A stretch of DNA of 64,000 bases from Takakia lepidozioides (lineage: Eukaryota > Plantae > Bryophyta), in the NCBI GenBank assembly GCA_030704615.1, contig CM060731.1:36456001-36520000 (forward strand), given 5' to 3'. The notes beneath the pieces are model-generated. The model saw only the letters and a list, made by a program, of their open reading frames with translations, ran no database searches and was not told the origin of the DNA. This document shows positions 5,111 through 61,800 of this stretch, piece after piece; positions within the stretch are counted from its first letter, which is position 1, and the number at the start of each line of letters is the position of its first letter. A program made the translations under genes and the position numbers.

Positions 5111-5152
<42 letters not shown>

Positions 5153-6013
5153 TTATTTGTTGATCTACGCTATCGAGGATTTTTCACCTTACCTTTTGAC
5201 TAAATTTTTATCCTTTCTCCAGGACTAAGGCAAAGAAAAAGGTGGCATGTGCAGGGCGGGCAACACCTTGAAATGGAAGAGTGTAAAAGAAGAGCTACAA
5301 CTCCATTCTCAGAGAAGATTGATTGCAATGTACTTGGCTTCAGATTCAACACCAATCTTTCGCTAACAGATAGCACCCAAAATTAGAAGGGTAGGACGGA
5401 GATGAAAAAAAGAGAGGCAGACACTCACTTTCTTTCAACGCACTTATCAAAACATGTCTGCGTCAGCCTGCACCGTCCAACCGACTCCATCTCTATTAAC
5501 ATGTCCCCTGATAATTTTTAATGACCCAAAAAAATGATAATAGAGTTAGACTCGAATCTAAACAAGGGGGAGTCGGGACACAAAACCTCCACTACCAACC
5601 GAGATAGCCTTCTGGATTTAAGACTGGTTCACCAATGACCTAAACTCAATCCAAAAATCAACGATCAAGCAGAACCGAAGAAAGAAGTGGGCGACAGTTG
5701 GACGGAGTAGCAGAAAACATAGACCATAACGGGACAGGGTTCGAATGTTCACTTGTTAAAAAGATCAACTCTATACTCCATTTCCTGCTGTGCCATTCCA
5801 AATATCTGCAAGACCCACCAGCGTCGCATTACTATCAAACGTGGAGCTTCAAGGAGAGTGTGATTAGGGCACAGACTCCAACAGAAAAAAGAAGAATCCC
5901 ATGGGACAACAAAGCACAACCATAGACAAAAATACACCCGAAAAAAAACCGATACAGAGAGAGAGAGAAGAGAGAGGCGGTACCTGCTCCTTGTCAACTG
6001 GGATCCCCGCCAT
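1565..6013 (-). CDS. TIM10: mitochondrial intermembrane-space chaperone TIM10 (5 exons, 81 aa)
   Basis: Exons 6013-5984, 5805-5753, 5467-5429, 2134-2065, 1618-1565, all GT-AG and phase-consistent. Protein MAGIPVDKEQIFGMAQQEMEYRVDLFNKLTQTCFDKCVERKYKEADLNVGENSCIDRCVAKYWQVTGIVGQMLGSGKPPMG has the twin CX3C motif and closely matches plant TIM10. Confidence 0.95.
2289..5111 (-). mobile_element. 5'-truncated, disrupted non-LTR retrotransposon (LINE family A, probably RTE/RTEX group) in TIM10 intron 3
   Basis: Begins at the apparent end of the APE domain (HFRVW). RT motifs KAGGPDGI, NYRGIML, QAGFR, QGCTLSPLLF (inverted segment), FADD and YTYLG; C-terminal CPLC..EDSIHFLIHC. Contains frameshifts and an in-frame TAG near 3590. 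Confidence 0.93.
5113..5149. repeat. (GA)n microsatellite abutting the LINE 5' truncation point
   Basis: About 18 perfect GA units. Confidence 0.95.
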
Positions 6014-20507: not shown

Positions 20508-22041
20508 TCACAAACCCACTTTGGAAGCACGAACCGCATCCATAAAGGCATGGATTCGAGCAGGGTCCTTGCGAATTCCATCAGTGCCAGCAATACCACT
20601 AGACACATCGACAGCACCTGGTCTCACAAGTGAGACTGCAGCTGCCACGTTGTCAGGTGTGAGTCCTCCTGCCAGGAGCCATCCCTGCTTGCTCCCCATT
20701 GATGGAGGTTGAAAATTGGTCCAATCAAACTTCTCTCCACTGCAATCCAAAGCACTCCACAACATCAAACCATAGTAGAGACCCTAAAGCCCTAAGCCTT
20801 TTCCAGTAGTTGGCCTGACAAAAAATCGTGTGGTTAATCAGGTAGACTGTGACTGGGCTTGACGCAAAACTCCCAGCATCTTGCTATTCCATCAATGGCC
20901 ATACATGCTCATGCTACAAGCCACACATGATTGAATGGCGGCATTTAGAAATGTGAAATGAATACCCTGTTGCTCTTCTGCTAGTAGAATTGTTACACTT
21001 TCAAACTCTGCACCTCCAAATGAACTGACTTTGGATAGTGTTACTGATCTCATAAAGTACACAGTGGGCCATCTGCGGAGAATGGCATGAGATTTGCTAT
21101 GAAAACTTTAAGAGTACCTTTGTAGTTTAAATCAAGGACCTGTCCCCCCATCTCTTTTATGATGTATTATCTGAATTCACTCTTTGCTTGATTGTCACAC
21201 AGGTACAGAGAATAAAGAACGTTTGACATCCTACCTTCCACCTTGCAAGCTGTCCACCAACACCCAGTCAACCGATGGCCCGTTCTTCTCATTAGGGATG
21301 ACAGTCTGTATGATACCATTCTTGTTGGCGTGCAAGACATAGATGAGCTTCAAAGAGGCAGGCAGTCCTCGCAACAACGATGCCCGCGCCCCATCACCAT
21401 GTAGCTGTGGACCCACTTCCCAAACACATTCCACTCATGAATCATAGAACCACTAAAGAATTGCCCAGGGAAGAATGCATTGAGCTGCATAGAGAGGAGA
21501 AAGAATGGAGTACCTGTGCAAATGTAAGGCCTGCCGCATCGCACGCCTTTTCGATTTCTGCCATGTCTTCTTCCACGAAAACACCCACGGGCTCTGCCCC
21601 ACTCTCCCTTGCAGCAGCTGCAATTTCCATAGCAAGGCTCCCACAAACCGACCGCTTGGATTTTGGCCACAGAATCATCCCCACATAATCAGCTCCAGCC
21701 TTTGCAGCAATGGCCGCATCCTCGGGGCTGGTTATGCCACACATCTTCACGAGTGGCGTGAAGATTTCACGCACATCTTCGCTCTTTGGAGAGGAGAAAG
21801 TCAATGCTCCAGCCATCGCTTGGAACCTCTGAGAAAGTTTTCTACTACAGACGCACAGACTCTTCCTTGCATCGTGAAAAGAAGGGCGGCTTTGCATATG
21901 CTGGAAGTATTTCGAAGATTTGTCAAATGGGTTTGCACAGAGTACATTGCTAGCATGAAGGGAAGGAAAGACTGAAGGGGAAGGAGTTGCAAGTGGTGGA
22001 CGCTGTGAAAGGCAACAACAGTTGCCCCCCGCAGAAAGCAT
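20508..22041 (-). CDS. PAI: phosphoribosylanthranilate isomerase (TrpF), probably plastid-targeted
   Basis: Exons 22041-21514, 21404-21235, 20739-20508. Motifs VKMCGIT, VGVFV, QLHG, VLVDS..GGSG..FDW, LAGGLTPDNV, DVSSG; Ser-rich N-terminal extension. Confidence 0.95.
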
Positions 22042-22978
22042 CGCAACTCAATAAGAAAAGAGATCACTTGTACTCTGCGAATGAGACCATCTCCATATAC
22101 GAACGAATCACTGGAGCAGAGAAGGAGAGAACTGACGATCTATAAGGAGATATTGTGATTTGGGTCCTTCCTAGAAGATCTCAGGCGATGAGAAGTTTTG
22201 TCTCGGAGGCAGAGTCTGAAACTTGGTTGTAAGAGAATTACTAGTAAGTTTCTAGTTAACAGTTACTTAGTTGCCTTCTCTCAAATCCGTGTTTCTTGCA
22301 TTGTTCTCTCTCTCCCCTTTCGCTAGGCACGGACAGGGCACCAGTATTTGCAACGGGAAGTGAAGAAGGGAGCCTTCTGCATTTCTCAACGTCAGTGGAA
22401 AATCTGATACCTCTGCATGAAGTGAATGCCTGCGATAATCTCATATCCTCCGTGTCTATGTATGTAGCTCCAAGCAACCCATGTCATGCCTCAGATCAGT
22501 CGGCTGACGAAACTTGGCCTATCACCTTCTTTGACATGTGAGTCTAATTAGTTGAAGCTCCAATTGCCAAAGAAGGCGATAGAATCACAAGTGATTCCTC
22601 AGAAACAAGAGATTTCTCTTGTGATGGGAGTAGTCTGAAGAGCACTTTTTGGAAATTGCAACATTTGGGCTGTGTGTGGAAACTTGAACCTTTATGAACC
22701 CCAACTTGCTGTGTACAAATGGTCAAGACTTAAGATCAAAAGTGGAAACATGATGCACTATGCGGGAAGGTGAATAGAAATTTGAGTCTTGCCACAAAGT
22801 TGAACCTCACTGCCATCACAAAATTGTTTTACTCTTGTTGACAGGCTTCCAGCACTCTAGAGACGCTCAACTTCGTACAAGTGAAGGGTTGACAGAGAAG
22901 GCGACTTACTAGAGGATCGCTGGTGCTGTGCTAGGCCATAAATCTTGACGCAGTTTCAAGATCACCTTCAGTTACGAG

Positions 22979-36077: not shown

Positions 36078-38243
36078 TTCTGCCAAGACTTACTTTTCCT
36101 AGAGCTACATATGCAATCATCTATGTTCTTATTTTGAACCTTGCTGGACCTTGTAATGAAATTCCAAGATTGCTATGTTGGGCATGCTGTCGGCAAGGTC
36201 CTTGAGGATTGTAAAGGTTAAATGGACGACCACACTGTTGGGAGGCTAATCTAAGTTGAGGAGCAGTGAGTGTAGATTAGGGAGTGCGGGTAATAGAAAA
36301 CAATAAAGTCCCTCTCCAGATATCCACACTCACTCCAGGTTACCCCAGTACCAAAAACAGCACATGATTGAGGGTGTTGGCCTCTCTGCAGCCTCTCTGC
36401 AGTCAACCAATGTGGTGTACTATTGGTATTGTAGTCTTGTGATTGGCCTGGGACATTGTTTTTCACCTAGGCGAGACTGATAAACAAATTCCAGTACAAA
36501 CTTTGTAGAGCTTTCATGATAAACTACAATACCTGGATTGTCAAAAGTTATTGTGATGGCTCTTCTCATGTCTATCAATCCTACTATTGTAACCCTGTAA
36601 GACATTGAGGTACATTGAGACTACTGTGGCACGTATTGTCCTCCCCTGTGTCTGGATCTATGTTGTTTTAGCATAGAAGAGCCTAATAAACTGCTATAGA
36701 CCATTTGTTGCAGCATGATCTCCATTCATGTATTAAGCTGGAAAATGGTTGGATTATCTTATAAGTGCTGACAGTTGAGGGAGTCTCCAGTGATAGATTT
36801 TTCAGTTGTTTGCCAAAAGAGGATTGTGAAGCTTGTGCATTTTTCTAAATAATATTGGCTTATCTTTGGATTTAGCTCTAATGGAATCATCATTTATCAG
36901 ATGGTCCCACTCTGGCTTTCCAATTTAAATGCCTCTTTCATTTCTATGTTGTGAATTGCATCTTCCAATCTGTTGATAACCTGTTCATGTGCATAAAGTA
37001 CTATGTAGATGATTCCTACAGTCTGGTGGTGAAGGAGGTGAGGAGGTGTAAACCATCACCAATTGAAGAGAGGGGAAATGAGTGGGGGCAGTGGGGGATG
37101 ACAATTAGCAGGACAGCGAAGGAGGAAATTTGTAGTGCAGGACTTACAAAAGAGTGCAGGCACAGATCTCCAGAGCCAACAAGAGAGGTTTTTCAGATGG
37201 TTTCCAAGAGAGGTTTCTTTTAGTACAGAGCTTTTAATACATTTGAAATTCAAACACTGCTGGAACATAGTCTCGATGGAAGCTCCTAAACAATGAAGAG
37301 ACATAACTTCGAGAAATCTATTGAGACCTCATAGAATTGTCGGAAAAGGGCTGTGTGTGTGTGAGGAGGGGGGGTGTTAATGCATCGCCCAACCTTTGAG
37401 ATAGAAACCTCAGACCAAACACACTTCTCAATCTCAATAAATGAGCAAGAGGCAAAAGAGCTTTCACCAAAGTAAATGCCTGCTCTACACAAAGAAACGA
37501 CATAAATTATGCCTCCACAGCCGACTTAGATTGCAATGATTTGGGACAGAAACCATTCCGAAAACACTTTGAGAGATGATTCAACCACCTCTCTAAGTCT
37601 ACGACTGCTTGTAAGAGGAAAGAAGCAACCACCTAGTCTGGAGAAAAGAAAGGGGAGGAAATGAAGTCAAGGATAAACTGCAAAGAGAAAGTATCCACAC
37701 ATCTGGTGAGGGCGGCCATAGCAGCAGATGATGGTGACTTAGTAGAAACATGACGTGGGCACTCTGTTGCATTGTGCTCCCATGAGCCCCACGACGAAGA
37801 AGATCGCTGGAGCCTCCGTATTCAGTTGAATCAAGAAACTTCTGGGCAGTCCGGGGAATTTCTCCAGGGGTAGATATCTCGGGCTGCCCTTTTCGAATAT
37901 TATCTGTGCTGCCCGGACACCCCTCCGGCAGCAGTATACCTGGGCGGGCTGCCCCTTTTCATGGGTTTCTTCCCAAAGGAAGACAGGGAAACAACGCTTA
38001 GCTACAATCCGTTCCAGAGATCACTGTAATTACAGAAAGGCCACAACTTCACAAAGTCAGATCTTGGGTTTCAAGTGTAATTGCGTTGGGGTGTGGCGTT
38101 CGAAGGATTGAAGCGGATTGAAGGCAGATTTGAGAGCTTTCAACCGATCCATGGCGTAATTTTGAGGAAAGGTGAAGAGCTTAGGTGTAGGAGGTTGGTC
38201 CAGAGGTGGAAGTCACACAGGTGCAGAGACGTGCACAGGTTGA

Positions 38244-41200
38244 ATGAGGTTGAATGAGATGGTGGGCGAGGAGGCGAAGGGAACGGTGTGCAAGTGGATT
38301 GTGAGAGACTGCTCGTCCGAGGCAGAAGTTCACCCTGCCAGCAATGTGTTGAAGGAGGAGCGTTACCAGCTCTGGCAGACAGGAGTGCCTACCGACGAGG
38401 CCTGGATGGTACTGGAGCCCCAACCCCCAAGCGCATTTAACAAAGTCGAGATTGTGAATGCTGGGTCATCGCTTGTTGAAATCTATGGGCTGCGGGAGGA
38501 CACGGATGGTGATGCCGAGGAAGATTATGAACTCTTATTATCCGCGCAGCAGGTTGGTGTTATTTGCATACCGAATTCAGCAAACCCGAGTTTCCATCCT
38601 GTATTTCCAGCGTTGTAAGTCAGGAGTCAATAGCGTACAATTCCACAATTGCTGGCAGATTGAACTCTGATTTGCGACTATGGACGAGGTCACACTTGGT
38701 ATGGAAAGGGTTCTACTAAGGTCATCGAAAATTGGGAACATCTGCTTTCAATGCAGCAAGTTCTTCGCAGTGCGTTTCTCATGCATTCTGCTACAGGCAG
38801 GACCTATACTCCCCTGAAAGACCCATTATTCACCAACCCAGGTGGGGTTTGGCAGTTTTGAGTGATCACCTCGCCATGTGTTGAGTACATGGTTTACGCT
38901 ACACTGTAGGCCATTGCAAGAAAGAGAAAGTATATGTTCCTGTTCTGGAATTACAATGGTAAACCCTAAACCCTTAGCATGGTGAAAGTACTTTAATATA
39001 AGAGGAAGAACATGTTATCATGAAGAATGTCTTATGGGTGATATTCAGGTGATGTCAGTGAAGGACTTGGTGAGCAAAAGCAACCGCAATCGCGCATTTA
39101 CATATGACATTGATGTCACTCACAAGCTGTCACCCCTTGCTGCCCAGCAACGGTAATTCTCTCTACCAAACTACAGGCAAACGAATTGCATCTCAGTATT
39201 CTGCAGGGATGATGCACTCAAGGGTACATAATCAATCCTTAGGATGAACAGTCAAAGGAGACATCCCTTGTCAAATGCCAAGCAATGTCTCCTGTTTCTT
39301 GATGGCAGTTTATATGGAAGCTTTGCAAAGGTGGAAGATTTGGTACAAGAACAATGTATGTTCAGTCTTTTTACTGACTCAACACATGGGTAATAAGTAT
39401 GATCAGTTTTGATTAGTGCAGGTGGAGAAAGCTGCGGGTGGTCTGTAAGCAGCCCTTTGGCACTGCTGAGCACCAAACTTCTATTGGCCTGGCTTTCATT
39501 CACTTTTCGCCTTGCAAATCCAAAGCTGACAAGTCGTATGTGAAGGCTCATTCCAGAAGTCAGGCGAAGATTTTAGTGACAAGTTGTATGGTGCCGAGTG
39601 TTGGTAACAAGTTCCAGAACAGAGTAGAACCCTCTAGATCCCAAACAGACCACCATCTGGCTGATGATGAAGAGGAGAAATTGAACACTCCGCTAGTGGA
39701 CCTCAGGAAAACAGACAATGGGAGGAAGCTCCCAACCTGGGCATCACCCAGTAAGTCTGCAAACTCAGAAGACAAATCTGGACAAAGATGCCTGGAACCT
39801 TCCATAATAGATGGCAACACAGAAGGCAAAGATGGTATAGATGAGAAAGATATTCAAAGAAGGAGGTCCTTCGCCAAAAGCGTTAAAAGCATTGGGAGTA
39901 GTACAAAAGTTGTGGCTTATTCTGAAGATGAGATTAATGGTACAGATATAGAGGTGCAAGATAGAGACAAAAGACTTCAATCCAGGGGAGAAGCCAGTGA
40001 AAACTCAGAGAAGAGCCAACAAAACAAAAAAAGTCCTGGTGCTGAAGCAAGTCAACGCTCTGCCATTCAGGACAATCAAGGAAGAAAAAATAATAAGCGA
40101 AGTCAGACTCCGGATGTGGAGGAGAGGAAAGGAAGTAAGAAACTGAACAGCTCAAGGGTCGGTGATGAAGTTCAAGCCAACCTTAGCTCACGGAGCTCCG
40201 AGGCAGGAGGCACTGTAGCTGGCAAGCCATGGAATTCGCAAGGCCAATCCAATGATGGAGGAGGTCCAATCTCTCATATGACTACCGACCACAGCAATAC
40301 AGACAGAAACATTAGCAGGAAACTAGGTGCTGGAAGAGGGATTGGAGTTGGTTGTTCCAAATCTGTCAGTTCCACCAAGCATCAAGACAATGCGGCTTCC
40401 GGAAATTTTGCAATGATAGGGACCTCTTCTGGGGGGACAGGTGAGAGAAACAAGGAGGCTGGCAATGGGATGGGCGGTGCTAGGAGAGAGGGTGGTACAG
40501 AAGGAAAGAGCACTGCTGTGCAAGACTTCTCAAGACTTATGGTGAGATCTCGCTGACTAGAGAGGCCAGGTTGACGTATGGCACACTTTTGTGTGACATG
40601 TGCCTTGTTTTGGGTGACCTGTCTTACTTTAGGGACCTTAGGGAAAAGAGGGAGGGAGCCTCACATGTTGTGTCAACTTTTAACAGTCCTGAAGAAGTAC
40701 TGTGTGGTGGCAGGGAGGAGTGGCATTCGCGATATCAGGATTAGTAAATCCAGAGCGTGGAGAAGTCCGAGATATGGGCCTGGATATGGGAGCCCAGTAC
40801 CGGCCTGACTGGACTTCAGACTGCACCCTGCTTGTGTGTGCATACCCCAACACTCCCAAGTTCAAGCAAGTGAAAGGAGCCGGTGGAACCATTGTCTCAA
40901 AGGTTTTCTCCCTGTTCTTCTAGTCCAAATGACATTAGTGTAGGATGTTACATGGTATTCTCTGTGTCGGCAAGACCTATCACAAGGTGTTTGCACATAT
41001 TCTTACCTATATCTGGCCTGTAACTGAATGCTTTTAGTTGGAAATTACTTGGTCCCAAGATCATGTTGTAAACAACAGTCTCTGGTCTTGCTTGATAATT
41101 TTAGTAGAGACAAGTCAGAAGTGCAGAACTGAAATCTCTTTTCCAGTCATCACACTCGCTTACATTGTTTTTGCTTTCAATGACGAATGATGTCCGGATG

Positions 41201-43730
41201 GCAGGAGTGGATCCCCAGATGTCACAAACAAAAGATGCTCATTGACATCGACAGGTAGCATGTCCACTTTTTGCTGCTAAGCTTTCGCTTTTGCTGTCCG
41301 AACTGTGAACAGTCTAATGGATATTGCAAGAACAGTTTGTAAGATTGCATTCCTCCACTGTATGTCATATCTCATCCCTAGACTCAAAGAACACAGCACC
41401 CAGGACACTAATACACCCCTGAAGATGAGTAGGGGCTGCAATTACATCCACTCTGGATCGGGGCTGTTGGTGAACTTCCAAAAAAATAAGGTATCTTGAC
41501 ACTGTGGGCCCCGAGGAATCTGACCTGATTGCATAGAAATGGATTGCAGTCACATTTTTTGGCCTACTAATGATCTTAAAATGCAACATGATTTCCCTTA
41601 ATTCTTCTGCATTTTGATTGGAGGGTGCTAGTCCATGTTTATTGAGAAGATTGAAGAACCCCATGTGTGGACCCTGCCCTTTTGTTCATGAAGCCAGGCC
41701 CACCATATAGCACTTTCTCGCTCATGCTTCAAACACGCAGGGCATGCCAATGGTCAGGGCAATACGTCTCACTGTAGGTGGGGTCCAAGCATGTGTGAGG
41801 TTATATCTGTGGTCGGCACACAGCAAGCCAGCACCACAGGCTCTCCACTTTGGGTACTTAAGGGGAAGGATCCTCAGTTTCTGACAGGTGGCTACTGTGT
41901 ATTTCCATTTGCATTGTCAGCAGGATCTTTCATATGCACTTTACTGGATTTTGCAGGTACCTTATGCACTCGGGGAGGCCATGGAGGAAGGGCAACTTCA
42001 AACAAACTGCAGATCATGTTAGTGTAGGTAAATCACATGCCTTAGGATCCCCTCTGAGATTGTCTGAAATTGTGTTTTCTGCAAAACTAAAATGACAAAG
42101 TTGTGCTCAAAATAGTGTAGGTAGCACCGCACTGCTGATAAATGCATGGACAGAGAGCAAATTAGGGTGCTACCTGGTAAGGTAGTTTTGTGACTTTGGG
42201 ACACCTACCTGTTAAGGCCCAACAGTGTTAGGTGGGCCAGGCCTTGACTAAATTTGGAAAATCTTCTCCAATTCTTGGGATCGAGTCCTGATATCCTTAA
42301 ATTGTACTGGAGTTAGTTGACAGAGATGAATAACCTAATTTATATGTATGTAGTCAATAGCCAGGACAATTGACTGCATGAGCAAGTACACAGGAATACC
42401 AAACAGTGTTGCAAATTATTCAGAGGGCTTTCAGGACCTATAGAAGCTGTATGAGTGACTTGCCCACGAAGATATACTAATCTGCTATCATCCTGCCAAC
42501 TGTTCTGGAAACACTCTTCACATTTCTGCAGAGGACGAGAAGGAGGATCAGTGCAGGGCTGCTCCAGCAGTGAAACAGTGGGTGCATGAGGATTTGAAGG
42601 CGAGTATGGAATGGCTGCAGCAACAACAAGACAAGGCAATCTGCTTTGCCTTTTTGACTGTAGCTTGTGCTTGATGAGGTGTGTCAGCTGAGGGATCCTG
42701 TAGCATTGTTAAGGGGTGTGGTAAGGGCCCAAATACAGGGTGAGGTAGGGAGGACAGCTGAACTCGAAGAGGACCGAGGTCATGTCCAGTAGACGAGAAC
42801 AGATGTGCCAGGGTTTGGTTGAAACTGCACATTGCTAAGAATGTGGATATGATGATGGGATTCATTGCAGCCAGATGCACATCAGTTGGAATCAACAGCA
42901 GCACAGGGCATCCTGGTCTGCCTGGATGATACTATCGAGAGTCTTAAGGAAAAACTGGTATGTTTGCATAATTTCATGGAAGTAGCCATCCTTTAACCTT
43001 GGTATTCATTAACAAGTTACTGCCTTGCTGGCATACACACTACTCAAGGACGTGGCATGTAGGCAGATACATATTTCTTTGTCATCCAAAGCAGGACAAA
43101 TTACAGGCAGCCGTTGCCCAATGAGATTGGTGGGCGGCCATATTGTCAGCCTCCATTTTTGTTTTTGGATGATGTTTATGTAATGTACCTAGGAACTGAC
43201 GGCATCTCTGGCTTCTCTGCAGGGTGTCTGCAGCATCATTGAGAAGTGGAGTTTCGTTCCACGGCCAGTCAAGGAGCTAGCAGCCCTGGAAGAAGGCAAC
43301 AGAGGTACAAGGATTGCAACAAGAGACCTAATCAAGGAAGCGGAGCGACTTAGGCGTATCTATGATGAAGAATTGACAAAATGCACTCCTCGTTTGAAGA
43401 GGCTTTACCACAAGGCAGAAGAGAAAGAGGACATGACCAGGTCAGTTCAATTCAGAACCATTAGTGACACGAAACTGCAAAGTCACTAACCAAGAGTCTC
43501 TGGAGATCCTCCAAAGATGGTCAACTGAACGTGACATTTGCTGTTCAGTATACAAAGTTGGGTGCTCCTGTGCTCAAACGCTCAACTGCACAAGTTTTAC
43601 AATTCATGTTTGCAGTGGAAAGAGGGGAGCGAATGGAGAGGAGGTTGATGATTCTGCCACAGAGGTGATGTCAGATGTGGACTCCCAGGAAACTGTTGAT
43701 CGCAACAGTGACGATACAATAGTTATGTGA
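38244..43730 (+). CDS. XRCC1: DNA repair scaffold XRCC1 (N-terminal domain + BRCT + plant-type C-terminus), 10 exons
   Basis: Exons 38244-38552, 39049-39152, 39422-40541, 40714-40902, 41205-41254, 41957-42027, 42532-42635, 42871-42957, 43223-43440, 43616-43730. BRCT motifs GVAFAISGLVNPERG..MGAQYRPDW...CTLLVCA.PNTPKF.QV...GG.IVSKEWI; plant motifs KLPTW, WSFVPR.VKEL, SDDTIVM. Confidence 0.93.
41662..41793. mobile_element. possible small MITE in XRCC1 intron 5
   Basis: Imperfect 17-bp terminal inverted repeat CATGTGTGGACCCTGCC / CATGCTTGGACCCCACC. No clear TSD. Confidence 0.35.
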
Positions 43731-49836: not shown

Positions 49837-52800
49837 ATGAAGGCCAAGAAGAAGCGGGGCGTGGAGGCGGTATGAACAATCGTACTCTTTTTGCTCAGAA
49901 GAGGGATGGATGATGCAGTTATGTTTAGAGTGGTGAAGTTAGTGCGAGCGAGTGCGATGTTGTTATAGTGGATCATGCTTGGGCCTCGTATGCTTATTTG
50001 ATGGAGGCGGTATGGCCAATTCACCTTTCTGTTTGCTAGAGGATTTCTAGGGTTTGCTGGAAAGGGCTGTTGCCGGAGATGTAGGCACTGGATAGGAGCT
50101 CATATGCATTTGTAAGCTAATGAAGGAGAGGTCAGGGGCTTAGACTCAGGCTACTCCACTCTTGTTTCTTGATACAAGAGGGGGATGGCTGGATGTGGAG
50201 TATGATGTACTCGCTAAGGCGATGGTGCAACGTTATATCACGGTTGATTACTAGATTACCATTCATATGCGGTGACTTTGTATGCTTGGTTGTCTTTTGA
50301 GTAGTGGCATTCTTTAGCTGTAGTAGTGAAGTGGTGGCTTTATTGCTCTTTTCTCCTCTCAGTAGAGGCGGGTCATAGCGCTGATTAGGTAGGCATTGGA
50401 CCAGGTATGACTGCAGCCATACCCGAGGAGGTCCTTCCCTTGGATCAGGCAATTCACATCTTAGGACAAACAATTGTGGATAGGATGATTAGGCTGTAGT
50501 GGCAGGCTATCCTTAAACTTCTAGCGATAGCTCTACTGAAACGTGCTGTCTGGGTGTTTCTGTGATTGAACCTGGCCTCAGGCGATCATTTTAACTATTG
50601 AATTTGCTGGGCAAATGAAGCTTGGTTAGGGTTGGGCTATACTCAAGTTGGTGACGTCTTCTGCAGTTATTACATTATAATGTTAGCTTCTTGGGGAGGG
50701 GGGTTGGGATCCCTAATTGTAGGGTATCTTATGAACAACGTTTAATTACACCACCATTACCAACTGTGTACTTCATGTTGGCAGAGCTGTGTTGCCGGGA
50801 AGTGCCCGATTGATGATGGGCGAAATATGAGTTTTATCTAGATTTATGTGAGTTGGGCAGGATGGATTGGTACAGGTTGGGAATTTGGAGAGAAACCTGA
50901 GGCAAAGGCCAAGGCCAAGTGTAGAAGTTCAGATCCATACTTACACCACTTAGGTTATTTGGAGTAGAAGGATTGTCCCTGTCAATTTTTAAATATCATT
51001 TTGGTATCCTATATCTCCTCCGGACGATGAGAGTTGTCAAGTCACACTCAAAATTTCCCAATCAGATGTAGCTCTGTGATCAGCTCACAGAGTAGGGTTC
51101 CGTCCCAATTTGTCCCAATTGCATGTTCATTCTCCAGCAGTTGGAGGCAGGAATAGGCATCATTGCGCTCTCTGTTGGCATTGTGGGAGAGTGGCTGGAA
51201 GCTTTTCCTTCTGGTAGATCGCTTGGGTGAAGGTGGTATTTTGTGGATGCTAGTGATAACAGGTCGGTCCCACATCTCCTGGAACTTTTTTGAGAATCAT
51301 TGACAGTTAAGGCTGATGGTCAGTTTGCATGGCAGCCTGTGAAAGTGAGGACCTTCATCAACAGCATCCTCAGCACTCCCCTTGAGAATATTGAGGTGCC
51401 TCTTTCTAGATTCAGTTGGGAGTATGAAAAGGTACATAAGGCTATACCAATTGTTCCCCTGTCTTTTCTATGTCTGTCTGGGATGGTGTTTTACAATGTA
51501 AGGTAGGTGAGGGATGAAATATGTTTGCCTGTGTCTCTCTCCCCTCTTCTATGTAGGAAAGACCTTGTGCTGCACTGCATATGCCCCACATGCTAGGCTT
51601 CTGGCAGTCGTACTCTCCTCCCTTTGTTTGTGAGCCTTTGGTTGCAAAGGAAAAGCCTCTCCTATTGCTGCCTGTCCTATGTATATTTTTCAACCTGTCT
51701 GCTATGAGGGCACTAAACCATTCCGGTCTTCAGTGTCTGGTTTTTGGTTTTCAATTCTTTTCAGCTCTCTTGCTCATAGTATATAGACCCACATAAGTTA
51801 TTTAGATTCTTTTTGTCATCTCTCCTTTTGTTTGTCTTACATTTCATTCTGTTTCTTCGCATTCTGAAATCCTCTTGCCATGGGCGTTTCTCAGAACTCT
51901 GATGGAGTTTGGTTGCATTGCAGGGTGACTTCTATCACTGGGTCGATTTGTTGAATCACTTCGAGGCTTTTTTTGAAAAGTATGTAAAACCTAGAAAAGA
52001 TTTGCAGCTGGAAGGTGAATTTCTGGAGGGAGATAACCCTTTTCCAAAGGAGGCAGTTTTGCAAATTCTTAGGGTGACACGAATCATCCTAGAAAACTGC
52101 ATGAACAAATATTTGTACAGTTCAAATGAGGTATTGTTCTAATGGCAGCATGTCTCAACTTTGTTGCACGTAGTTTTCTAGGATGACAGAAGGTGACATC
52201 TAGCTAGCTCAAAATATAGGTCCATCATCCCATATATTTTATCTGATATTATCCTCTTAAACTACTGTTGTAGTATTTGTCTGGCTGTCATATGGAAACT
52301 TCTAACCTCCGGTAGCATCTTTAATTCTGAATATGATTACAGATAAGTATGTTCATATCTGTTTGGCCTGAAATGAGCAATCAATGGTCTATGGATGCAG
52401 CATGTGTCTTCATTATTTGCTTCAACGGACCCAGATGTAGTTATTGCGGCATTGCATACATTGGCAGCATTTGTGAAGAAGCCTGTGCAGTCAAACCGGG
52501 CAATGCGATGGCCTGGAGACTCAGCCTTGAACGCCCGTCTTTTCTCCTTGTCTCAAGGTTGGGGGGGAAAAGAGGAAGGTTTAGGATTATTGGCTTGTGC
52601 TGTAGAGAGTGGATGTGACAGCGATGCTTGCAAACTCGGGGCTACATTGCACTTTGAGTTTTATGCAGAGGGTGATGCTGCGAATGGGACGGATGCAAAA
52701 CCATCTGGATTGCAAGTAATCCACATCTCCAACCTTCATATGCAAGTAGAGGGGGATCTTCAGCTGTTGAAGAAGCTTGTGGATGAATATATGGTACCCC

Positions 52801-55800
52801 CCAGCCTTAGATTCTCACTGCTCACGCGGCTGCGGTTTGCAAGGGCATTTGCGTGCCTTACCTCTAGGAGGCAATATATTTGTGTGCGGCTTCTTGCTTT
52901 CACAGTGCTACTTCAGTCGAATCCTGATCATGAAGACCTTACAGCCTTTTTCATCAATGAGCCTGAGTTTGTGGATGAATTAGTGACAGTTTTGCGGTGT
53001 GAGGACACCGTCCCAGAGGACATTCGCATTCTAGCAGTCTTGGCTTTGGCAGCACAGTCCCAAGACAGGCCCCGACAATCCAATGTCTTGAATGTGATAA
53101 GTGCAGGCGGGCATCGCGGCATTTTGCCCAGTCTCATGCAGAAAGCAATTGGGTCGATCACTGAAGGGGCATTTGGATGCTCAGTTGCCTTTGTGGAGTC
53201 CCTTCTCTCTCTTGTCACTGTTCTTGTGTCATCATCAGTGGGCTGTGCTGCTTTGAGGGAAGCCGGTTTGATTCCCACTCTTCTCCCTCTTTTGAAGGAC
53301 ATGGACCCCCAACGCACACATCTAGTCAGCTCGGCTGTCCACATTCTCGAAGCTTTTATGGATTACAGCAACCCCGCAGGTACCCTGTTCCGGGATCTAG
53401 GAGGGCTGGATGACACAGTTGCAAGGTTGAGAGTTGAAGTTACTCGCGTAGAAGAGGGGGCAATGAAGCAGCGGGAAGAAGCTCAATCAGATAGCAAGGG
53501 AAAGGCCCCTATGATGGAGGATGGGGACTTGCAACAGCTGTCTGCTGGAGTATTGTCAGAGACCCTTATTCCATACCACCAAAGATTACTTCTCAAGGCC
53601 TTGCTCCGGGCCATTGCTCTAGGCACCTATGCCCCAGGTAGTTCGGCAAGGCTCCATGGGGCAGAAGAGAGTGCGTTGCCTGCCTGCCTTTGCACTATTT
53701 TCAGGCATGCTAAGGAGTTTGGAGGGGGTGTTTTCGCATTGGCAGCATCAGTTATGAGTGATCTCATTCACAAGGACCCCACTTGTTTTACTGCCCTCGA
53801 TGGTGCAGGCCTTCCTGCTGCATTTTTGGACGCCATTACATCGGGTGTGTTACCTTCATCAGAGGCCGTTGGCTGCATTCCCAACAGTTTGGATGCTCTC
53901 TGCCTTAACAATTCAGGCTTGCAGTCAGTCCGGGACCGTAATGCTCTCGGTTGTTTTGTCAAGATTTTTACATCAAAGGTGTATGTACGTGCGTTAGCCA
54001 ATGACACACCAGGGACTCTTGCTTCAGGGCTTGATGAGTTAATGCGACACGCACCCACGCTTCGTGGACCAGGCATTGACACATGTATAGACATTTTGAA
54101 GACCATTGCAACCATCGGAGGAGCAGCAGGAGAGCCCCCAGCTGCAGCCTCTCTACCTGAGCCTGCCAACGGAGATGTCCCTGTGCCTATGGATACAGAC
54201 ACAGAAGACAGACCTTGTGGTGCAGTTTCAGGTGAAGAAACAATCAAAGCATCAGGCCAATCGAAGCAAATCTCTGAACCTGTGCCTGATGTCTCCGGCT
54301 CAAATGTAGAGGCCTTCCTGCCTGAATGCATCAACAATGCCGTGCGGCTTCTGGAGACTGTGCTTCAAAATGCAGATACAAGCCGTGTGTTTATTGAGAA
54401 GAAAGGGATTGAAGCTTTGCTTCAGCTGTATACCCTACCTCATTTGCCTGTCTCTTTCGGGGGCTCGTCCACTGCACATAACATGTCAGTCACCTTCCGA
54501 GCTTTCTCACCCCAACATTCTGCAGCACTTACTCGGGCAGTGTGTGGTGGCCTTAGAGAACATTTGAAGGTGACCCTGGACCAGCTAAACCTGGTCACTG
54601 GAACAAAATTGTCAGACTTGGAGAGTGGATTGCGGAACAGGGCAGTGCGCTTGCTGTCGGCAGCCGAGTGTTTTCTTTCTTTGTCCTCTGTTCTGGTTAG
54701 GAGTTCAGCTGCCATGATGGCAGAGTTGAGCTCTGGGTCGGCAGAAATATTGCATGATGTTGGGGAGGTTCACAGGAAAGTTCTTTGGCAAATATCAATG
54801 TTTGATGATGCCAAAGTAGATGTGAAAAAGGATACAGATGTCGGGAGCGGCAGCACTGCTGCAAGTGTAGGTGTAGGAACAGGTCAAAGGGAAGGGGAAG
54901 ATGAGACAGATGTTTATCCTGTAGTGAGATACGTGAATCCGGTACAGTTGCGCAATGGACCATCCTCTCATTGGGGTGTAGGGCCTGACTTTCTACCTGT
55001 CCTCCACACCGGCGATGGTCCTCACCGGCGTGCCCGCAGGGACCATGCATCAAATGCTGAAACTCTCAGTCACATTGCGCGTTTGGGTCGCCTTGCCCGT
55101 CATGCAGAGGCCAGTCAAGCTGACTTAGAGGGTGCTGCTAGCCTCACTGAGCCGTCTCCGGTTGCAGAATCAGGGAAACGAAAGTCTCCAGAATCTCTGA
55201 ACTATGAGATGCTGAACAGGCTCGCATCAGCTGCCCGTTCGCTTTATGTGGCTTTGGGGAAAGCCATGGTGGTCCCTTCTCGCCGTCGTGATGACACTGT
55301 GCCCTTGAGTGTGGCTGCCAAGTCAGTGGCCGCTGCACTTGCTAAGCTTCTTCGCAACAATCTGAGCTTTGATGGGCACAGGGGAGCATCTCAGTCAGAG
55401 CCCTCCATTTCAGTCAAATGTCAGTACTTGGGGAAGGTAGTTGAGGACGTTCTAGCGGTGGTTTTCGACAGTCGACGGCGAACTTGCAACACTGTGCTAG
55501 TGAATAGCTTGTTTGGGCACGGAGCATTTAAGCAACTCCTGGCCACTTTTGAAGCAACGAGCCAGCTGCTGTGGACAGTTCCACAGAGCTCATGGGGATC
55601 TCCCATGGAAACGGAGAACGGAAAGGCGGAAGGTGAAAAAAGTGAGGAGAAATCAGAGAGCAACTCCTGGCTACTTGATACGTTGCGAAACTATGCACGA
55701 CTGTTGGAGCACTTGGTAACTTCTTCTCTGTTGTTGACTCCCCCATCAATGGCACAGATGCTGGTTCAGTCTGTGTCAGGTGGGTCAGTGACTGTGCCAA

Positions 55801-58800
55801 AGGAACCGGAGGTGTTCATCCGGACCTTGCAAACCCAGGTGCTGGAAGTTGTACTTCCTATCTGGAATCACCCAATGTTTCCGCAATGCAGTTCTAGTTT
55901 CATAACATCTATTGCAGCCATCATCACGCATGTCTACACAGGCATAGGAGATGTGAAAGGGAGTCGAGCAGCAGGGGTAGGTACTGGTGGGGCACGTCTT
56001 GGCCCCCCTCCTGATGAATCTTCAATATCAATGATTGTGGAGATGGGATTTCCACGCGCGAGGGCAGAAGAAGCACTTCGTCGTGTGGATACTAACAGTG
56101 TTGAGATGGCTATGGAGTGGTTGTTTACCCATCCGGAGGAGGCAGCACAGGTAATTTAGCTTGTACATGTTGATTTCCTTTTAATGTTCACAAATTGTTG
56201 TTTCCTGCTTTTTATAAAGTTTGTTGATATGAGATATTTCTTTCCTACATTTACTTCCACAAGACATATCAGTGTGACCTTGACTTACCTTGACTTACAA
56301 GTTGGCTTTAACAGTTTGTGTGCTTTGTTAGTCTTGCTTGGTGGATTGTACGAAGACTAATGACATTTGTAACGCACTGGATCTATTCAACACATTTTAC
56401 TCCTTGTGGGGCGTTTTACTACCAGGAGGATGATGAACTGGCAAGGGCCCTTGCCCTGTCACTCGGTAATGATGGACCACCTAAAGAGGATGCGACAGCT
56501 GGAAGCAAAGGAAAAGAAGCTTCTCCAGAGGAAGAGGGAACACAAGCTCCTCCCATAGAGGACATGCTTTCCACATGCATGAACCTCTTACAGAACACAG
56601 ATGCGGTAGCTTTTCCTTTGACAGACTTACTGGTCACTATGTGTAACCGGAACAAGGGCCAGGACCGTCCTCGCGTCATCTCCCACCTCATACAACAATT
56701 GAAGGTCTGTAAAGTGGAGGAATCGACCAGTGATACAAGCCCACTATCAACCATATCTCACACACTGGCTTTAGTCTTGAGCGAAGACAGCACTGCCCGA
56801 GAGATTGCGGCTTCGAATAGCCTAGTGAATATAGCTCTGGATGCTCTTACATGTTTCCATCCTGCTGAGGACAGTGTGAAGGCTGAGGTTCCCAAGTGGG
56901 TCACAGCTCTCTTGCTCATCCTAGGTCACATGCTGCAAAACAAATCAAAAATCAATGGAGATGCTGTGAATGGGTCAGCTGCAACAAGCAATAGTGGGGC
57001 GGTGAGCTTGGAGGTCCTTCCCTCTGAGGGACAAAAGCCTGTCTCTCAGGATGGGCAGAAGGAGAAGGATGCAAACCCATTTGTTGCCATACTGGGAAAG
57101 CCAACAGGGTACATGACAGATGATGAGCAACGAAGAGCTATGGCTGTTGCTGGTGTCTTTCTTCACATGCAGTTGCCATCCTCAGCAGTACAGGCTGTGC
57201 TCCAACTTTGTGCACGGCTAACGAAGACACACTCAGTAGCCATGCAGTTCTTGGATGCAGGGGGGTTGACTGCGTTGCTGAGCCTTCCCAGGAGCTGCCT
57301 TTTTTCAGGGTTTGACAGTGTGGCTTCTGCTATTATTCGTCATGTTCTAGAGGATCCCCAGACACTTCAGCAAGCTATGGAGTCCGAGATTCGTCATACT
57401 CTAGCTGCTACTCTGTCACGCCACAATGGTCGTGTGTCTCCCCGCATGTTCTTAACAGCCATGGCACCTGTCGTGTCACGTGATCCTTCAATTTTCATGC
57501 AGGCTGCAGCCATGGTCTGCCAGATTGAGACAGTGGGGGGCCGCCCAACCATCATTCAGGCCAAGGAGAAAGAGAAGGACAAAGATAAGGACAAAGATAG
57601 AGACAAGGAGAAGGAGAAGGATAAAGAGAAGTTAAAGACTGTTTCCTCTACTGGGGAGACAGGAGGTGTGGGTGCAGGCACAGTAGATGGAAGCTTAAAG
57701 GCTCATGATGCATCTAACAAATCGGGTAAGGGACATCATCACAAAAAGGTGCCTCAAAGCTTTTCGCAGGTCATTGATCAGTTGCTGGAGGTTATTCTTC
57801 ATTATCCACCACCTGACAAGGAAGATGATCAATCAACCAAGGATGGCAGCATTGCTATGGAAGTGGACGATTTTGCAGTCAAGGATAAGGGCAAGGCAAA
57901 GGTAGCTAACATCCTCATAGCGGCCCTCAAGCTAGAGGGTGATTCAGACATTCCAGAGAGCTCTGCAGCATTGGCCAAGGTGACCTTCATTTTGAAGCTT
58001 ACCACTGAGGTTTTGCTTATGTATTCATCGGCTGTGACTGTAGTTTTGCGGAGGGATTCAGAGAGCAGTCAAGGAAGAGGCCCGTGTCAGGGAGGGGCAG
58101 AGGCGATCGGGCATGGAGGCCTTTTGTATCATGTCCTTCACAGGTTACTTCCATATCCTGGTGAGAAGGCTAGTGACAAGCTCAGTGAGGATGAGTGGAG
58201 GGAGAAATTGTCGGACAAAGCTGCGTACTTCCTTATGGCAGTGTGTGTGAGATCAGGGGAAGGCAGGAGACGAGTAGTGGTGGAGATTGCGAGGGCCTTT
58301 ACTGCTGCTGCTGCCACCACACACAGTCCCAGTTTGGAGGTGGGAACTTTTAAGGGCCTGCAGGCCCCACACAAAAAAGTTCGGGCCTTTGTCGATCTTG
58401 TGAACTCAATTCTCTCCTCTCATTCCTCATCAGGGAATGCTCAGGCTCCTGGGTTCTCCACGGACATGGCAAAGACTATGATGGATGCTGGTATGGTGCA
58501 AGCATTGACTCACACTCTCCAGGTAAGGTCATCGTAATTTTGAAAGTATCACATTTAATAGGGCTTCATTGCTATGCTTCTCTGAATGACTTGTAATTCA
58601 CACACGGCCCCCAACACAGATCCTTGAGCACTAAGATGGTGAAGGTGGCAACTAACACACTCTTACTTTGGTGGACTTCAGGTGATAGACTTGGACCATC
58701 CAGATGCACCCAAGTTAGTGAATGCTGTCCTGAAAGCACTGGAGGCTCTAACCAGGGCTCCCAGTAGCAGCGAGCAAGTGTTTGGCTCTGAGGTCAGTAA

Positions 58801-61800
58801 CCAGAAAAAGTCTACCATGGGTGAGAGACCATCTGAGCAACGACCTGAAGCCCCAAATGAGCAGGGGGCAGCAGAGGCCCGGCGAGAAGGGGAGGTCCTA
58901 TTGCACTCAAGAGATGAACCCATGTCTGATTCTGTGCCACAAGAGACTGTGGCTCTGGAGGGAGTCCTTCCAGTCCCCACTGGGAGCGGTGACAGTAGTC
59001 GGGATGAGCAGATGGAGCATGACATGGGGCTGGATAGAGAGGAAGAGGTACACTACCCAAGGAGACCTGAATAGTATTAGTACAAGGTTCAGGTTGTTCA
59101 AGAAAACCTGCTCTGCCTCTGTTGGTATATCACGGGAGCACTGTAGATTTGTGTGTTGGCTTGTTCAAGGACTCAACAACTTGGATCTAGTCTGGGAGGC
59201 AAGTACTTGTTGGAATAAGTTCAGGTTTTGTTTGGTTAGCATTGAGTTGTATTTAAGCAAGTGTTCCCTGCTCCAGGCATGCTTAGATGCAGAGGCTGAG
59301 GAGGAGGAGTTTATGCGTGAGGCAGTTGAGGATGCGGTTGAGCTGGAAAATGTTGCTGCTGAGATGGCATACCGCATGGAGCATGGCACAGAAGACGAAA
59401 TTGTGGATGAGGATGAGGATGAGGATGACATGGACGGTGATGATGGTGATGATGATGGTGAAGAGGAGGAGGAGGATGAGGAGGAAGAGGAGGATGAAGA
59501 TGACATGGAAGGTGATGAAGGTACTGAGTCTATGCGAGAATAAGAGATGCACCCTGAAGATTTTTGTTTTTGCTAACGTGAGGGCCATAGAACCCTGCAC
59601 CTTGTTTGGATAGAGTGATATAGGGAGGGGTTAGAGGAAGGGCACTGGAGTAAAATGCACACTGCTGAAGGCTGGCTCCAGCAGTGGTATTTGTCTATTA
59701 TATTAAGTTGATTTAACTCTTTCGGCTTAACCATCATCCATTGGATATACATCCCAGAAAACCCAAGAATGGCTACAGGATTGAGCTGACCTGAACATGT
59801 CTTCGCTGGTTTTGATGGATTGGATAGTATCAGGATTGTTTTACGGTCTTGAAACCACTGAGAAGTGCCTTGGGGTCTCCAGTGGCGCCTAAGGAGCTGT
59901 CCAAAAGTTCTGCATCTGGAATTCCTCTTGTCTAGGTTTTGTTCAGCTCTGGAATGGCGGGCTTCCTAGAAAGCCGTATTTATGTGCAATTCATTGTGAT
60001 GCATTTAGTATTCCTAATGTGTTTTAGGAGGAAACTGTGGTAGAGTAGTGTTTTCTGTGGCTGTACTCTCTGGCTACCTTTATGTATTGCAGGGTCACTT
60101 CACACATCAAAGGATGGTGGTATGGTACTTGAGGGACGTGTTACTACATGTTGATAGTATAGTGCTCTCCATCTGAGCTTGCTGCACAGAGTAGAGTGTA
60201 AAAAGATTACTATGGTGATGATGATGATAAAGGAGTGAATCTGTTTTTTCTGCATTTATTGAACCAAGTTTTCCTATTTTCTGTGACAGTTGTTTAATAC
60301 TACTTGTAAATTTGGGTTCGTCCTGAATTTACAAAGGGTTGTTCATGAATGCAGGGGTTCCTCATCTCTCACCCCCTGACACTGATGTTGAGGATCATGA
60401 AGACAATGGGCTGGGTGACGAGTATGAGGAAGATATGGTGGAAGAAGAGGACGAAGACGATGACTGGCGCGAGGATCGTGTGATTGAAGTGCGGTGGCGT
60501 GATGGGCTGACAGGGCTCAACCATGTCCAAGTGGGTGCCTTAAGTCTGGGGCTTGTAGTCCAGTAATGCTAGACATATGTTGTTGGGTTTGTTCTTAGGT
60601 ATGCTGCCCGGAAGTGAAAGCAACTAGTTCACCTGCTTAGGATTGTTGCAGTTTCTGACTAGTGCAACACCCATGCTTGCCAGGACTTACTGAAATTGGA
60701 AGAAAGATTGCAATGCAGGTACTGGGCCACACGGGCCCTGGAAATTTGGTTGATTTTACAGGAGACCCGTTTCACGGTATGAACATGGACGATGTCTTTG
60801 GCTCTTTCCGACGACCTGGAGGCAGTGACCGTAGGCGTCCTGCCGCTTACCGGCCATTTCCCGAACGGCCTGGTGGGGAACGTGGAGGGGCTTTTCACCA
60901 CCCTCTGCTGACAAGGCCATCCCCGACATCTGGGTCTGGATCAACTGCAGGAGTCACAAGTAGTTCTCTCTGGCCGAGCACTGGCAGCATTGTGCGGGAG
61001 GCAGAAAATTGGCTGGGGGGAGGAGCAGCACTGGATGTAACTCATTTCTACATGTATGATGGCCCCATGATGGCTGATCATACTGATGGACTCTTTGGAG
61101 AAAGGGGAGCAGGTGGCCCACCTCCTCTTCTTGACTTTTCAGTGGACCCTGTTTATCTTATGGGGCGACGAGGGGGCCGGACTGATGGCCGTTTGAGCAG
61201 CTGGACTGATGATGGTCAGCCCCAGGCAGGTGCACATGCTGCAGCAGTAGCCCAGGCTATTGAAGAACAGTTCATCTCACAGTTGCGGATTCTAGTCCCT
61301 GGAGATGAGCCCCTGTCAACCCAGATAGCGGGTGATGTCAGCGCCCCTGCCAGCACTGTGGCCACAGACGCAAGGGGTCCAGAGAATATTGTGGGAGCAG
61401 TGGAACCAGAGGCTTCCACCCGGGTCACTGACAGCAATATGAATGAGCAGCGGGGCAGTCTAAATGGAACAGAAGCGGAAACATGCAATGTGGAGGGTGG
61501 GAGTGCAAGTGGTGCAGAGGGTCTTCACTTATCAAGCAGCAGAATCAACGCAGCCAGGTTGGGTTCAGAGGGCCCCAATGGTAACCAAGCAAATGCTGAT
61601 CTGGATGTTCAGATGCAAGACGAGAGGAGCGAGCCTGTGGCACATGATACCGAGGCCGGCAGTCAAGACAGTGGTGGAAGTGGGGCTACTGTGGGGGAGA
61701 GTCTTCGCAGCTTGGAGGTAGAGATAGGGAGTGTCGATGGGCATGATGAAGGGGATCGGCCTATAGGCCCTGAGCGATTGAGAGCCAGTGAACTACAGCC

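What the first reader, a model, noticed from the sequence alone, without database searches (positions are those of the whole stretch)
38244..39505. Land-plant XRCC1 that keeps the animal-type N-terminal (Pol-beta-binding) domain
Seen: exons 1-3 splice in frame to give DCSSEAEVHPASNVLK..YQLW...VEIVNAGSSLVEI...EDYELLL...VMS...SNRNR...AAQQRWRKLRVVCKQPF...IGLAFIHF. These lie ahead of the plant KLPTW motif and BRCT. Known (recalled): this tracks the human XRCC1 NTD (SCSSQD..C.ENLLK, VDIGNDGSAFVEV, QDYEVLL, SNPNR, AAEKRWDRVKIVCSQPY..FGLSFV.F). Angiosperm XRCC1 is described as lacking both the NTD and BRCT2, in line with plants lacking Pol beta and LigIII. Here the NTD is present and BRCT2 is absent. 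By eye, F67->L, V86->L, R109->F and redox Cys20->P are altered, while E69 and Cys12 are kept. Inference: an ancestral short-patch repair module, possibly recruiting Pol lambda, a retained Pol beta-like enzyme or a new partner.
Basis: partly seen in the sequence, partly recalled or inferred. Interest (0 to 1): 0.78.

Follow-up and report, generated by a model that had tools for sequence, protein, structure and literature searches.

The report
Ancestral plant XRCC1, repeatedly shortened elsewhere
This is the intact, spliced gene for the DNA-repair scaffold XRCC1 of what is likely a bryophyte; like moss, fern and gymnosperm relatives it keeps the front domain that flowering plants lack, but with a changed polymerase-binding face that likely docks a repair polymerase differently from animals, and it carries a short motif predicted to bind the break sensor Ku.

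Summary
Observation confirmed. A 10-exon, 788-aa XRCC1 gene; one transcript-like contig joins all nine introns, including both N-terminal-domain (NTD) junctions. Exon 1 scores Pfam XRCC1_N above cut-off; BRCT2 is absent. The NTD is not special to this genome: Ceratodon, a lycophyte, ferns and gymnosperms have it, already Pfam-labelled in public records. It is missing in 12 of 12 named angiosperm species, in Marchantia and Riccia records, and at the Sphagnum locus (checked in DNA): likely three or more losses. New here: all 16 plant NTDs share a remodelled Pol-beta face (F67, R100, R109 replaced in 16 of 16, kept or conservatively changed in most of 112 non-plant NTDs), and 32 of 45 plant-type XRCC1s but 0 of 120 others carry the minimal APLF-type Ku-binding motif. 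Flies keep the NTD without Pol beta, so retention does not imply Pol beta. The partner is untested; I could not look for Pol beta in this genome. Ten paper searches found no description. The scan's notes held no earlier XRCC1 plant finding. New variant of a known kind; interest 0.42.

The parts
37984..38243 (+). 5' untranslated leader (at least); in-frame TGA just before the start codon; a two-codon uORF at 38151-38159
   Evidence: X1 contig begins at 37984; ATG positions and upstream stop
38244..38552 (+). Coding exon 1: first two thirds of XRCC1 N-terminal domain (aa 1-103)
   Evidence: Pfam XRCC1_N E=2.8e-12; PDB 3k77/1xna/3k75 E 3-4e-7
39049..39152 (+). Exon 2: NTD aa 104-137, holds the equivalents of human R100, R107, R109
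   Evidence: joints in X1 contig; NTD profile 44 bits; alignment
39422..40541 (+). Exon 3: end of NTD (to 39512), ~340-aa poorly conserved linker, start of BRCT1
39723..39740 (+). R-x-x-P-x-W motif (aa 239-244), predicted APLF-type Ku80-binding motif
   Evidence: motif definition PMC4831024
40714..40902 (+). Exon 4: core of BRCT1
   Evidence: Pfam BRCT/PTCB-BRCT; joints
41205..41254 (+). Exon 5: BRCT1
41957..42027 (+). Exon 6: end of BRCT1 (to 41987)
42532..42635 (+). Exon 7: start of plant C-terminal helical domain (from 42570); followed by a GC-AG intron
42871..42957 (+). Exon 8: helical domain
43223..43440 (+). Exon 9: end of helical domain (to 43381)
43616..43730 (+). Exon 10 coding part: acidic tail and stop; no BRCT2

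Best explanation
This is an intact, spliced land-plant XRCC1 gene with an N-terminal domain, a Ku-binding-like motif, one BRCT domain and a plant helical domain; the N-terminal domain is likely the ancestral state, likely lost independently in flowering plants, Sphagnum and Marchantia-type liverworts, and likely still docks an X-family repair polymerase through a remodelled, more hydrophobic version of the animal Pol-beta site. Shown: gene, splicing, domain order, distribution in the sampled records, residue pattern. Inferred from family knowledge: BRCT1 brings the scaffold to poly(ADP-ribose) at strand breaks. Inferred, untested: the NTD's partner (my split: Pol lambda 0.3, an overlooked Pol-beta-like enzyme 0.2, a non-polymerase protein 0.35, DNA or nothing 0.15) and binding of the R-x-x-P-x-W motif to the Ku80 vWA pocket (about 0.5), which would tie plant XRCC1 directly to Ku at double-strand breaks. 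Confidence in identity and architecture is about 0.97, in repeated loss about 0.8; the number below is for the whole statement including the polymerase partner.
For: Splicing and ORF. Domains; a model of a related plant NTD (P0237, pLDDT >90 for 132 residues) matches human XRCC1 NTD best (3k75, E=4.5e-13, TM 0.85 by target). Distribution: NTD in Ceratodon (two paralogues), Diphasiastrum, Adiantum, Ceratopteris, Psilotum (fragment), Gb_38900 (Ginkgo by my recall of the id), Cryptomeria, Taxus, and in dictyostelids and animals; absent in 12 of 12 named angiosperm species and in Marchantia, Riccia and Sphagnum records. Sphagnum-type loci: no NTD exon in 10 kb upstream (L001, L002), in-frame stop two codons before the ATG, same in transcript-like L005. 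One clade of NTD-less land-plant genes is rejected, modestly (p-AU 0.033, 9 vs 11 rows). The NTD is as conserved as BRCT1 (window vs 9 plants: NTD 57-69%, BRCT1 59-74%, linker 22-31%), so it is under selection. The same face keeps E69 (16 of 16), R107 (15 of 16) and hydrophobic residues at 67 and 86 (16 of 16), while R109 becomes F/L/S and R100 loses its charge in 16 of 16, against R/K in 104 and 106 of 112 non-plant NTDs. F67/V86 form the Pol-beta pocket and R109A cuts binding ~5-fold (PMC6614843, PMC2926592). NTD-less rice XRCC1 does not bind Pol lambda (PMC4444747), as expected if the NTD were needed. Motif: 11 of 14 NTD-bearing and 21 of 31 NTD-less plant-type proteins, 0 of 120 non-plant, shuffle expectation 0.06, 0.08, 0.15.
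Against: No binding was tested, not even by modelling: no plant or animal X-family polymerase or Ku80 sequence was obtained. Diptera keep the NTD with no X-family polymerase, so it can have a polymerase-independent use. Human Pol lambda is reported to bind the central/BRCT region of XRCC1 rather than the NTD (PMC11241748). Loss of R109 weakens Pol-beta-type binding. Repeated loss shows the domain is dispensable. R-x-x-P-x-W occurs in over 600 human proteins and its basic flank could be just a nuclear localisation signal; it is missing in 3 of 14 and 10 of 31 plant proteins, including one Ceratodon paralogue and Magnolia. Marchantia, Riccia and angiosperm losses rest on annotated proteins, not on genome DNA; an NTD-bearing paralogue elsewhere in those genomes is not excluded; Amborella, hornworts, Selaginella, Physcomitrium and green algae were not sampled by name. 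The tree does not place the window's organism.
Confidence: 0.5

Rival explanations
1. The remodelled NTD binds a non-polymerase partner (or DNA), conserved from mosses to conifers; the polymerase link was lost before land plants.
For: A coherent plant-wide swap on the binding face (F67, S92, R100, R109; invariant Q91, Q92, K97, R105); Diptera precedent; Pol lambda binds human XRCC1 elsewhere; plants are stated to have only Pol lambda. NTD-DNA binding is reported but disputed (PMC6395731).
Against: E69, R107 and the hydrophobic pocket are kept; no candidate partner is identified.
Confidence: 0.35
2. Seed-free plants and gymnosperms retain an unrecognised Pol beta orthologue whose thumb loop co-evolved with the NTD; NTD loss follows Pol beta loss.
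For: Statements that plants lack Pol beta rest, in the passages I saw, on Arabidopsis, rice and Chlamydomonas; Chlamydomonas has extra X-family sequences; NTD loss is patchy.
Against: No call showed such a gene; no genome was held; a search for X-family + Physcomitrella + Pol beta found 0 papers; R109 is lost in 16 of 16 plants; Diptera break the expected co-occurrence.
Confidence: 0.2
3. The NTD is a vestige with no current function, decaying at different rates.
For: Lost in at least three lineages; Arabidopsis XRCC1 works without it (PMC10573277).
Against: NTD identity matches that of BRCT1 across mosses to gymnosperms and 33 columns are invariant in 14 full plant NTDs; kept in both Ceratodon paralogues.
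Confidence: 0.1
4. Artefact: exons 1-2 belong to another gene or are not spliced to exon 3.
For: The NTD junctions are seen in one contig of one run whose RNA status is a guess.
Against: The domain itself is split across the three exons in register with the profile; introns have no cover; the same fusion is in 13 other plant proteins.
Confidence: 0.01

Closest known systems
Human XRCC1 (NTD structures 1xna, 3k77; Pol beta complexes 3k75, 3lqc; BRCT1 2d8m)
   Same: NTD fold and sequence, BRCT1, order NTD-linker-BRCT1; E69 and R107 kept.
   Different: No BRCT2; F67, V86, R100, R109 and C20 changed; has a plant helical domain and an R-x-x-P-x-W motif that 0 of 120 non-plant XRCC1s show.
Arabidopsis and rice XRCC1 (AT1G80420; reviews PMC10573277, PMC6728418, passages)
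   Same: BRCT1, C-terminal helical domain, acidic tail, no BRCT2; the motif is near the N-terminus of most angiosperm records.
   Different: Angiosperm proteins are ~350-450 aa and begin just before the motif; this one has the NTD and a long linker in front.
Unnamed XRCC1 orthologues of Ceratodon, Diphasiastrum, Adiantum, Ceratopteris, Cryptomeria, Taxus (public records, Pfam PF01834 + BRCT)
   Same: Same architecture; NTD 55-68% identical.
   Different: Only in linker length and sequence; these are database entries, mostly 'hypothetical protein', with no paper found.
Dipteran XRCC1 (Drosophila, Anastrepha, Anopheles, Condylostylus)
   Same: NTD kept in a lineage reported to lack Pol beta.
   Different: They change V86 to E/D (5 of 5) but mostly keep F67 (4 of 5) and R109 (3 of 5); plants keep a hydrophobic 86 and change 67, 100, 109.
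APLF-type Ku-binding motif of APLF, WRN, MRI/CYREN (PMC4831024, passages)
   Same: Core R-X-X-P-X-W in a disordered region, usually after basic residues.
   Different: XRCC1 and plants are not mentioned in that paper (0 occurrences); binding untested here.

Membership tests
Land-plant XRCC1 orthologues | XRCC1-type BRCT1 | tested here: met
   Pfam BRCT; 57-74% identity to plant XRCC1 BRCT1; related P0002 hits human BRCT1 2d8m E=8e-29
Land-plant XRCC1 orthologues | No BRCT2 (PMC6728418) | tested here: met
Land-plant XRCC1 orthologues | C-terminal helical domain shared with angiosperm XRCC1 | tested here: met
   profile 140 bits; no non-plant hit above 8 bits
Land-plant XRCC1 orthologues | Groups with land-plant XRCC1 in a tree | tested here: met
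   inside the land-plant group, 92/95, exact place unresolved
XRCC1_N domain (PF01834) | Profile score above gathering cut-off | tested here: met
   47.3 bits vs 21 on exon 1 alone
XRCC1_N domain (PF01834) | XRCC1 NTD beta-sandwich fold | tested here: met
   on relatives, not on the window's own spliced protein: P0237 model vs 3k75 E=4.5e-13; Atlas model of P0002 TM 0.85 to chordate XRCC1
Animal-type full XRCC1 (NTD-BRCT1-BRCT2) | C-terminal BRCT2 for ligase III | tested here: not met
Mammalian Pol-beta-binding NTD | F67/V86 hydrophobic pocket | tested here: inconclusive
   both are Leu: changed but hydrophobic
Mammalian Pol-beta-binding NTD | R109 | tested here: not met
   Phe here; F/L/S in 16 of 16 plants
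Mammalian Pol-beta-binding NTD | C12-C20 redox pair (role recalled; paper title only) | tested here: not met
   C20 is Pro; Cys in 0 of the plant rows shown and 9 of 112 non-plants
Mammalian Pol-beta-binding NTD | A Pol beta in the same genome and binding to it | not testable with these tools
   no genome held; no polymerase sequence obtained
APLF-type Ku-binding motif | R-X-X-P-X-W core in a poorly conserved linker | tested here: met
   aa 239-244
APLF-type Ku-binding motif | Trp-dependent binding to Ku80 vWA pocket | not testable with these tools
   no plant Ku80 sequence on hand

The most novel reading that the evidence does not exclude
Land-plant XRCC1 is a rewired scaffold: it traded BRCT2 for an undescribed helical domain, gained its own APLF-type Ku80-binding motif that links single-strand-break repair to Ku end joining, and in mosses, ferns and gymnosperms uses a remodelled N-terminal domain to recruit the long-sought gap-filling polymerase of plant base excision repair; three lineages then cut the protein back to just before the Ku motif.
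Probability: 0.22. Interest if true: 0.72.

Novelty: new variant of a known kind. Interest (0 to 1): 0.42.

Why it matters
Reviews treat the short Arabidopsis protein as the plant XRCC1 and name the gap-filling polymerase of plant base excision repair as a major open question (PMC6728418). If most non-flowering land plants keep the polymerase-docking domain, a moss or fern NTD is a ready bait to find that polymerase, and Ceratodon versus Sphagnum or Marchantia gives natural with/without pairs. The Ku-binding-like motif is present in crops too and, if real, changes how XRCC1 is placed in plant double-strand-break repair, which bears on genome editing outcomes. The gene itself is an ordinary housekeeping gene, and its NTD is already visible in public domain labels, which caps the surprise.

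Tried and rejected
No whole genome is held, so X-family polymerases, ligase III, APLF and Ku80 of this organism could not be sought; all protein database searches went to XRCC1 itself. No complex prediction was run: no polymerase or Ku80 chain was available and I do not claim NTD self-association. One search listed no holder on record as RNA; both runs are guessed RNA. The C-terminal helical domain folds confidently (P0176, residues ~77-200) but has no Pfam hit, no Foldseek match at E<=0.001 and only Z<=7.0 helical-bundle matches; the Atlas gave Med26/LEDGF-like leads at 0.86-0.88, below the trust line: fold unassigned. My idea that the helical domain also exists in the protist P0031 was not supported (no profile hit). 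Trees on BRCT1 + helical domain did not place the window's organism; 'likely bryophyte' rests on NTD identity (65-68% to moss-type proteins vs 55-58% to others) and a shared short insertion. The Closterium record starts at BRCT1 and is uninformative. In one search the script printed 1 of 121 non-plant hits; that row (P0177) is Diphasiastrum, mis-binned, so the count is 0 of 120. One search's non-plant set kept only near-complete NTDs (112). Paper searches; two searches were poorly aimed (1 of 30 and 0 of 40 listed papers held XRCC1). PMC4030884 and PMC3969565 (passages; supplement rows for the latter) gave nothing on architecture. PMC5580684 was not held. Taylor 2002, Uchiyama 2008/2009, Martinez-Macias 2013 and Morales-Ruiz 2018 were seen only as citations and may discuss plant architecture; Table S1 of bioRxiv 2023.05.26.542399, which may list APLF in plants, was not seen.

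Full report
Observation. Exons 38244-38552, 39049-39152 and 39422-40541 have canonical ends and join in frame. Guided by contig joints, the model extends to 10 exons and 788 aa with one stop at the end and one GC-AG intron. Of two public runs, both only guessed to be RNA, X1 has one 3256-nt contig with all nine joints and X2 has 6 of 9, none in the NTD; several intron bins have no cover. X1 differs from the window at four single letters and by a 3-nt in-frame insertion, so it is probably another individual. Exon 1 scores Pfam XRCC1_N at 47.3 bits (cut-off 21), the start of exon 3 completes the profile, exon 4 is BRCT; human NTD structures match. A BRCT2 profile from 55 sequences finds nothing in the protein or window beyond a weak cross-hit to BRCT1.

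Anatomy. NTD aa 17-168; a 340-aa linker with R-x-x-P-x-W at aa 239-244; BRCT1 aa 507-601; a helical domain aa 628-731; an acidic tail. The window's own spliced NTD was not folded; a related plant NTD (P0237) was, at high confidence, and matched human XRCC1 NTD first, as did the Atlas model of the Ceratodon protein. The helical domain is confined to plant-type records in my set, folds confidently and has no assigned family.

Distribution. The NTD joined to plant-type XRCC1 occurs in Ceratodon (two paralogues), Diphasiastrum, Adiantum, Ceratopteris, Cryptomeria, Taxus, Gb_38900 (Ginkgo, recalled from the id) and as a fragment in Psilotum; these records already carry the Pfam label. Dictyostelids and animals have NTD-BRCT1-BRCT2, so the NTD is ancestral. 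It is absent in 12 of 12 named angiosperm species (Victoria, Magnolia, Asimina, Spirodela, Canna, Rhynchospora, Digitaria, Alopecurus, two Triticum, Carnegiea, Fraxinus), in Marchantia polymorpha and Riccia fluitans, and in Sphagnum records. For Sphagnum-type DNA I checked the locus: 5 loci, two with 10 kb upstream and no NTD exon, an in-frame stop two codons before the ATG in the three examined, and a transcript-like contig that agrees; the same profile found all three NTD exons in the window as control. Holding the nine NTD-less land-plant rows in one clade is rejected at p-AU 0.033 (20 rows; group defined by the trait, tested after a first tree had been seen). With the accepted species tree (own knowledge) this means likely three or more losses. 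Limits: liverwort and angiosperm losses rest on annotation; paralogues elsewhere are not excluded; several lineages are unsampled.

The binding face. Using rabbit XRCC1 for human numbering (checked), 16 plant and 112 non-plant NTDs were compared. Kept in plants: E69 16 of 16, R107 15 of 16, N62, M94, W33. Changed in all 16: F67 to L/V (F in 91 of 112 others), V86 to L/M (V in 79), S92 to Q (S in 83), R100 to uncharged residues (R/K in 106), R109 to F/L/S (R/K in 104). F67 and V86 bound the Pol-beta pocket (PMC6614843, passages); V86R abolishes and R109A cuts binding about five-fold (PMC2926592, passages; PMC12190888, passages). So the face is conserved in position, changed in chemistry, and the change is fixed from mosses to conifers, with NTD identity equal to BRCT1's. 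That argues for a live partner and against a plain animal-type Pol beta contact. Plant rows are related, so 16 of 16 is one ancestral event, not 16. C20 to Pro is the commonest state outside plants too and says nothing.

Precedent against over-reading. Five named Diptera keep the NTD although Diptera lack Pol beta and Pol lambda (PMC6849265, section 11). Human Pol lambda is proposed to bind XRCC1's central region (PMC11241748, passages). On the other side, NTD-less rice XRCC1 does not bind Pol lambda (PMC4444747, passages), and 'plants have only Pol lambda' rests, in the passages seen, on angiosperms and Chlamydomonas. I could not look for polymerases in this organism.

The motif. It lies before BRCT1 in 11 of 14 NTD-bearing and 21 of 31 NTD-less plant-type proteins and in 0 of 120 non-plant XRCC1s; shuffles give 0.06, 0.08 and 0.15 (one mis-binned lycophyte row removed from the last set). 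NTD-less forms mostly start 5-20 residues before it, which suggests truncation stops at something needed. The core is short and common (over 600 human proteins), so Ku80 binding is a prediction. In mammals XRCC1's second linker binds APLF (PMC6395731); a built-in motif would shortcut that. That plants lack APLF is my recall; the plant PAXX preprint (passages and section 5) does not say it outright and its table was not seen.

Literature. PMC10573277 states that AtXRCC1 lacks NTD and BRCT2; PMC6728418 that plant XRCC1 lacks BRCT2 (passages). Ten searches found no paper on NTD retention in non-flowering plants or on a Ku motif in plant XRCC1; the library lacks most subscription papers, including the original plant XRCC1 studies. 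The scan's notes held no similar sequence and no plant XRCC1 entry; same-genome notes call the organism a bryophyte, unchecked.

Verdict. A real, ordinary XRCC1 gene whose architecture is the undocumented ancestral land-plant form. New variant of a known kind.

Noticed in passing
window 39723-39740 +: Minimal APLF-type Ku-binding motif, shared by most plant XRCC1s including cereals and absent from 120 non-plant XRCC1s; no paper found.
   Followed up: partly
window 42570-43381 + (exons 7-9): Plant-specific ~105-aa helical domain with no Pfam family and no clear PDB match; weak Med26/LEDGF-like lead.
   Followed up: partly
window 42636-42870: Intron 7 has a GC donor, supported by the X1 contig joint.
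   Followed up: yes
window 38151-38159 +: Two-codon upstream ORF in the 5' leader.
   Followed up: no
window 38114, 39524, 39947, 43305, 43709: Four single-letter differences and a 3-nt in-frame insertion in the run contigs versus the window; probably another accession.
   Followed up: no
P0002 and P0006: Ceratodon has two XRCC1 paralogues, both with the NTD; only one keeps the Ku-like motif and the acidic tail.
   Followed up: partly
L001:10001-12791: Sphagnum-type XRCC1 shares the exon boundary before BRCT1 with the window; its first coding exon corresponds to the window's exon 3, so the loss removed exons 1-2 and the start of exon 3. The upstream gene looks like a sigma factor (recalled resemblance, not tested).
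   Followed up: partly
window 52377-63404 +: Large gene with DUF908, DUF913, UBA, UIM and UBM hits: an ordinary UPL1/HUWE1-type ubiquitin ligase, running towards the window end.
   Followed up: no
window 21445-22047 -: Exon of a phosphoribosylanthranilate isomerase (PRAI, E=1.7e-9).
   Followed up: no
window 2297-5183 -: Broken reverse-transcriptase-like frames, probably a LINE remnant (RVT_1 E=6e-4, below cut-off).
   Followed up: no
P0142, P0066, P0160: Odd XRCC1 records: Closterium XRCC1 joined to a helicase domain, a 1903-aa Synstelium protein, and a 952-aa protein with an internal NTD; possibly merged gene models.
   Followed up: no
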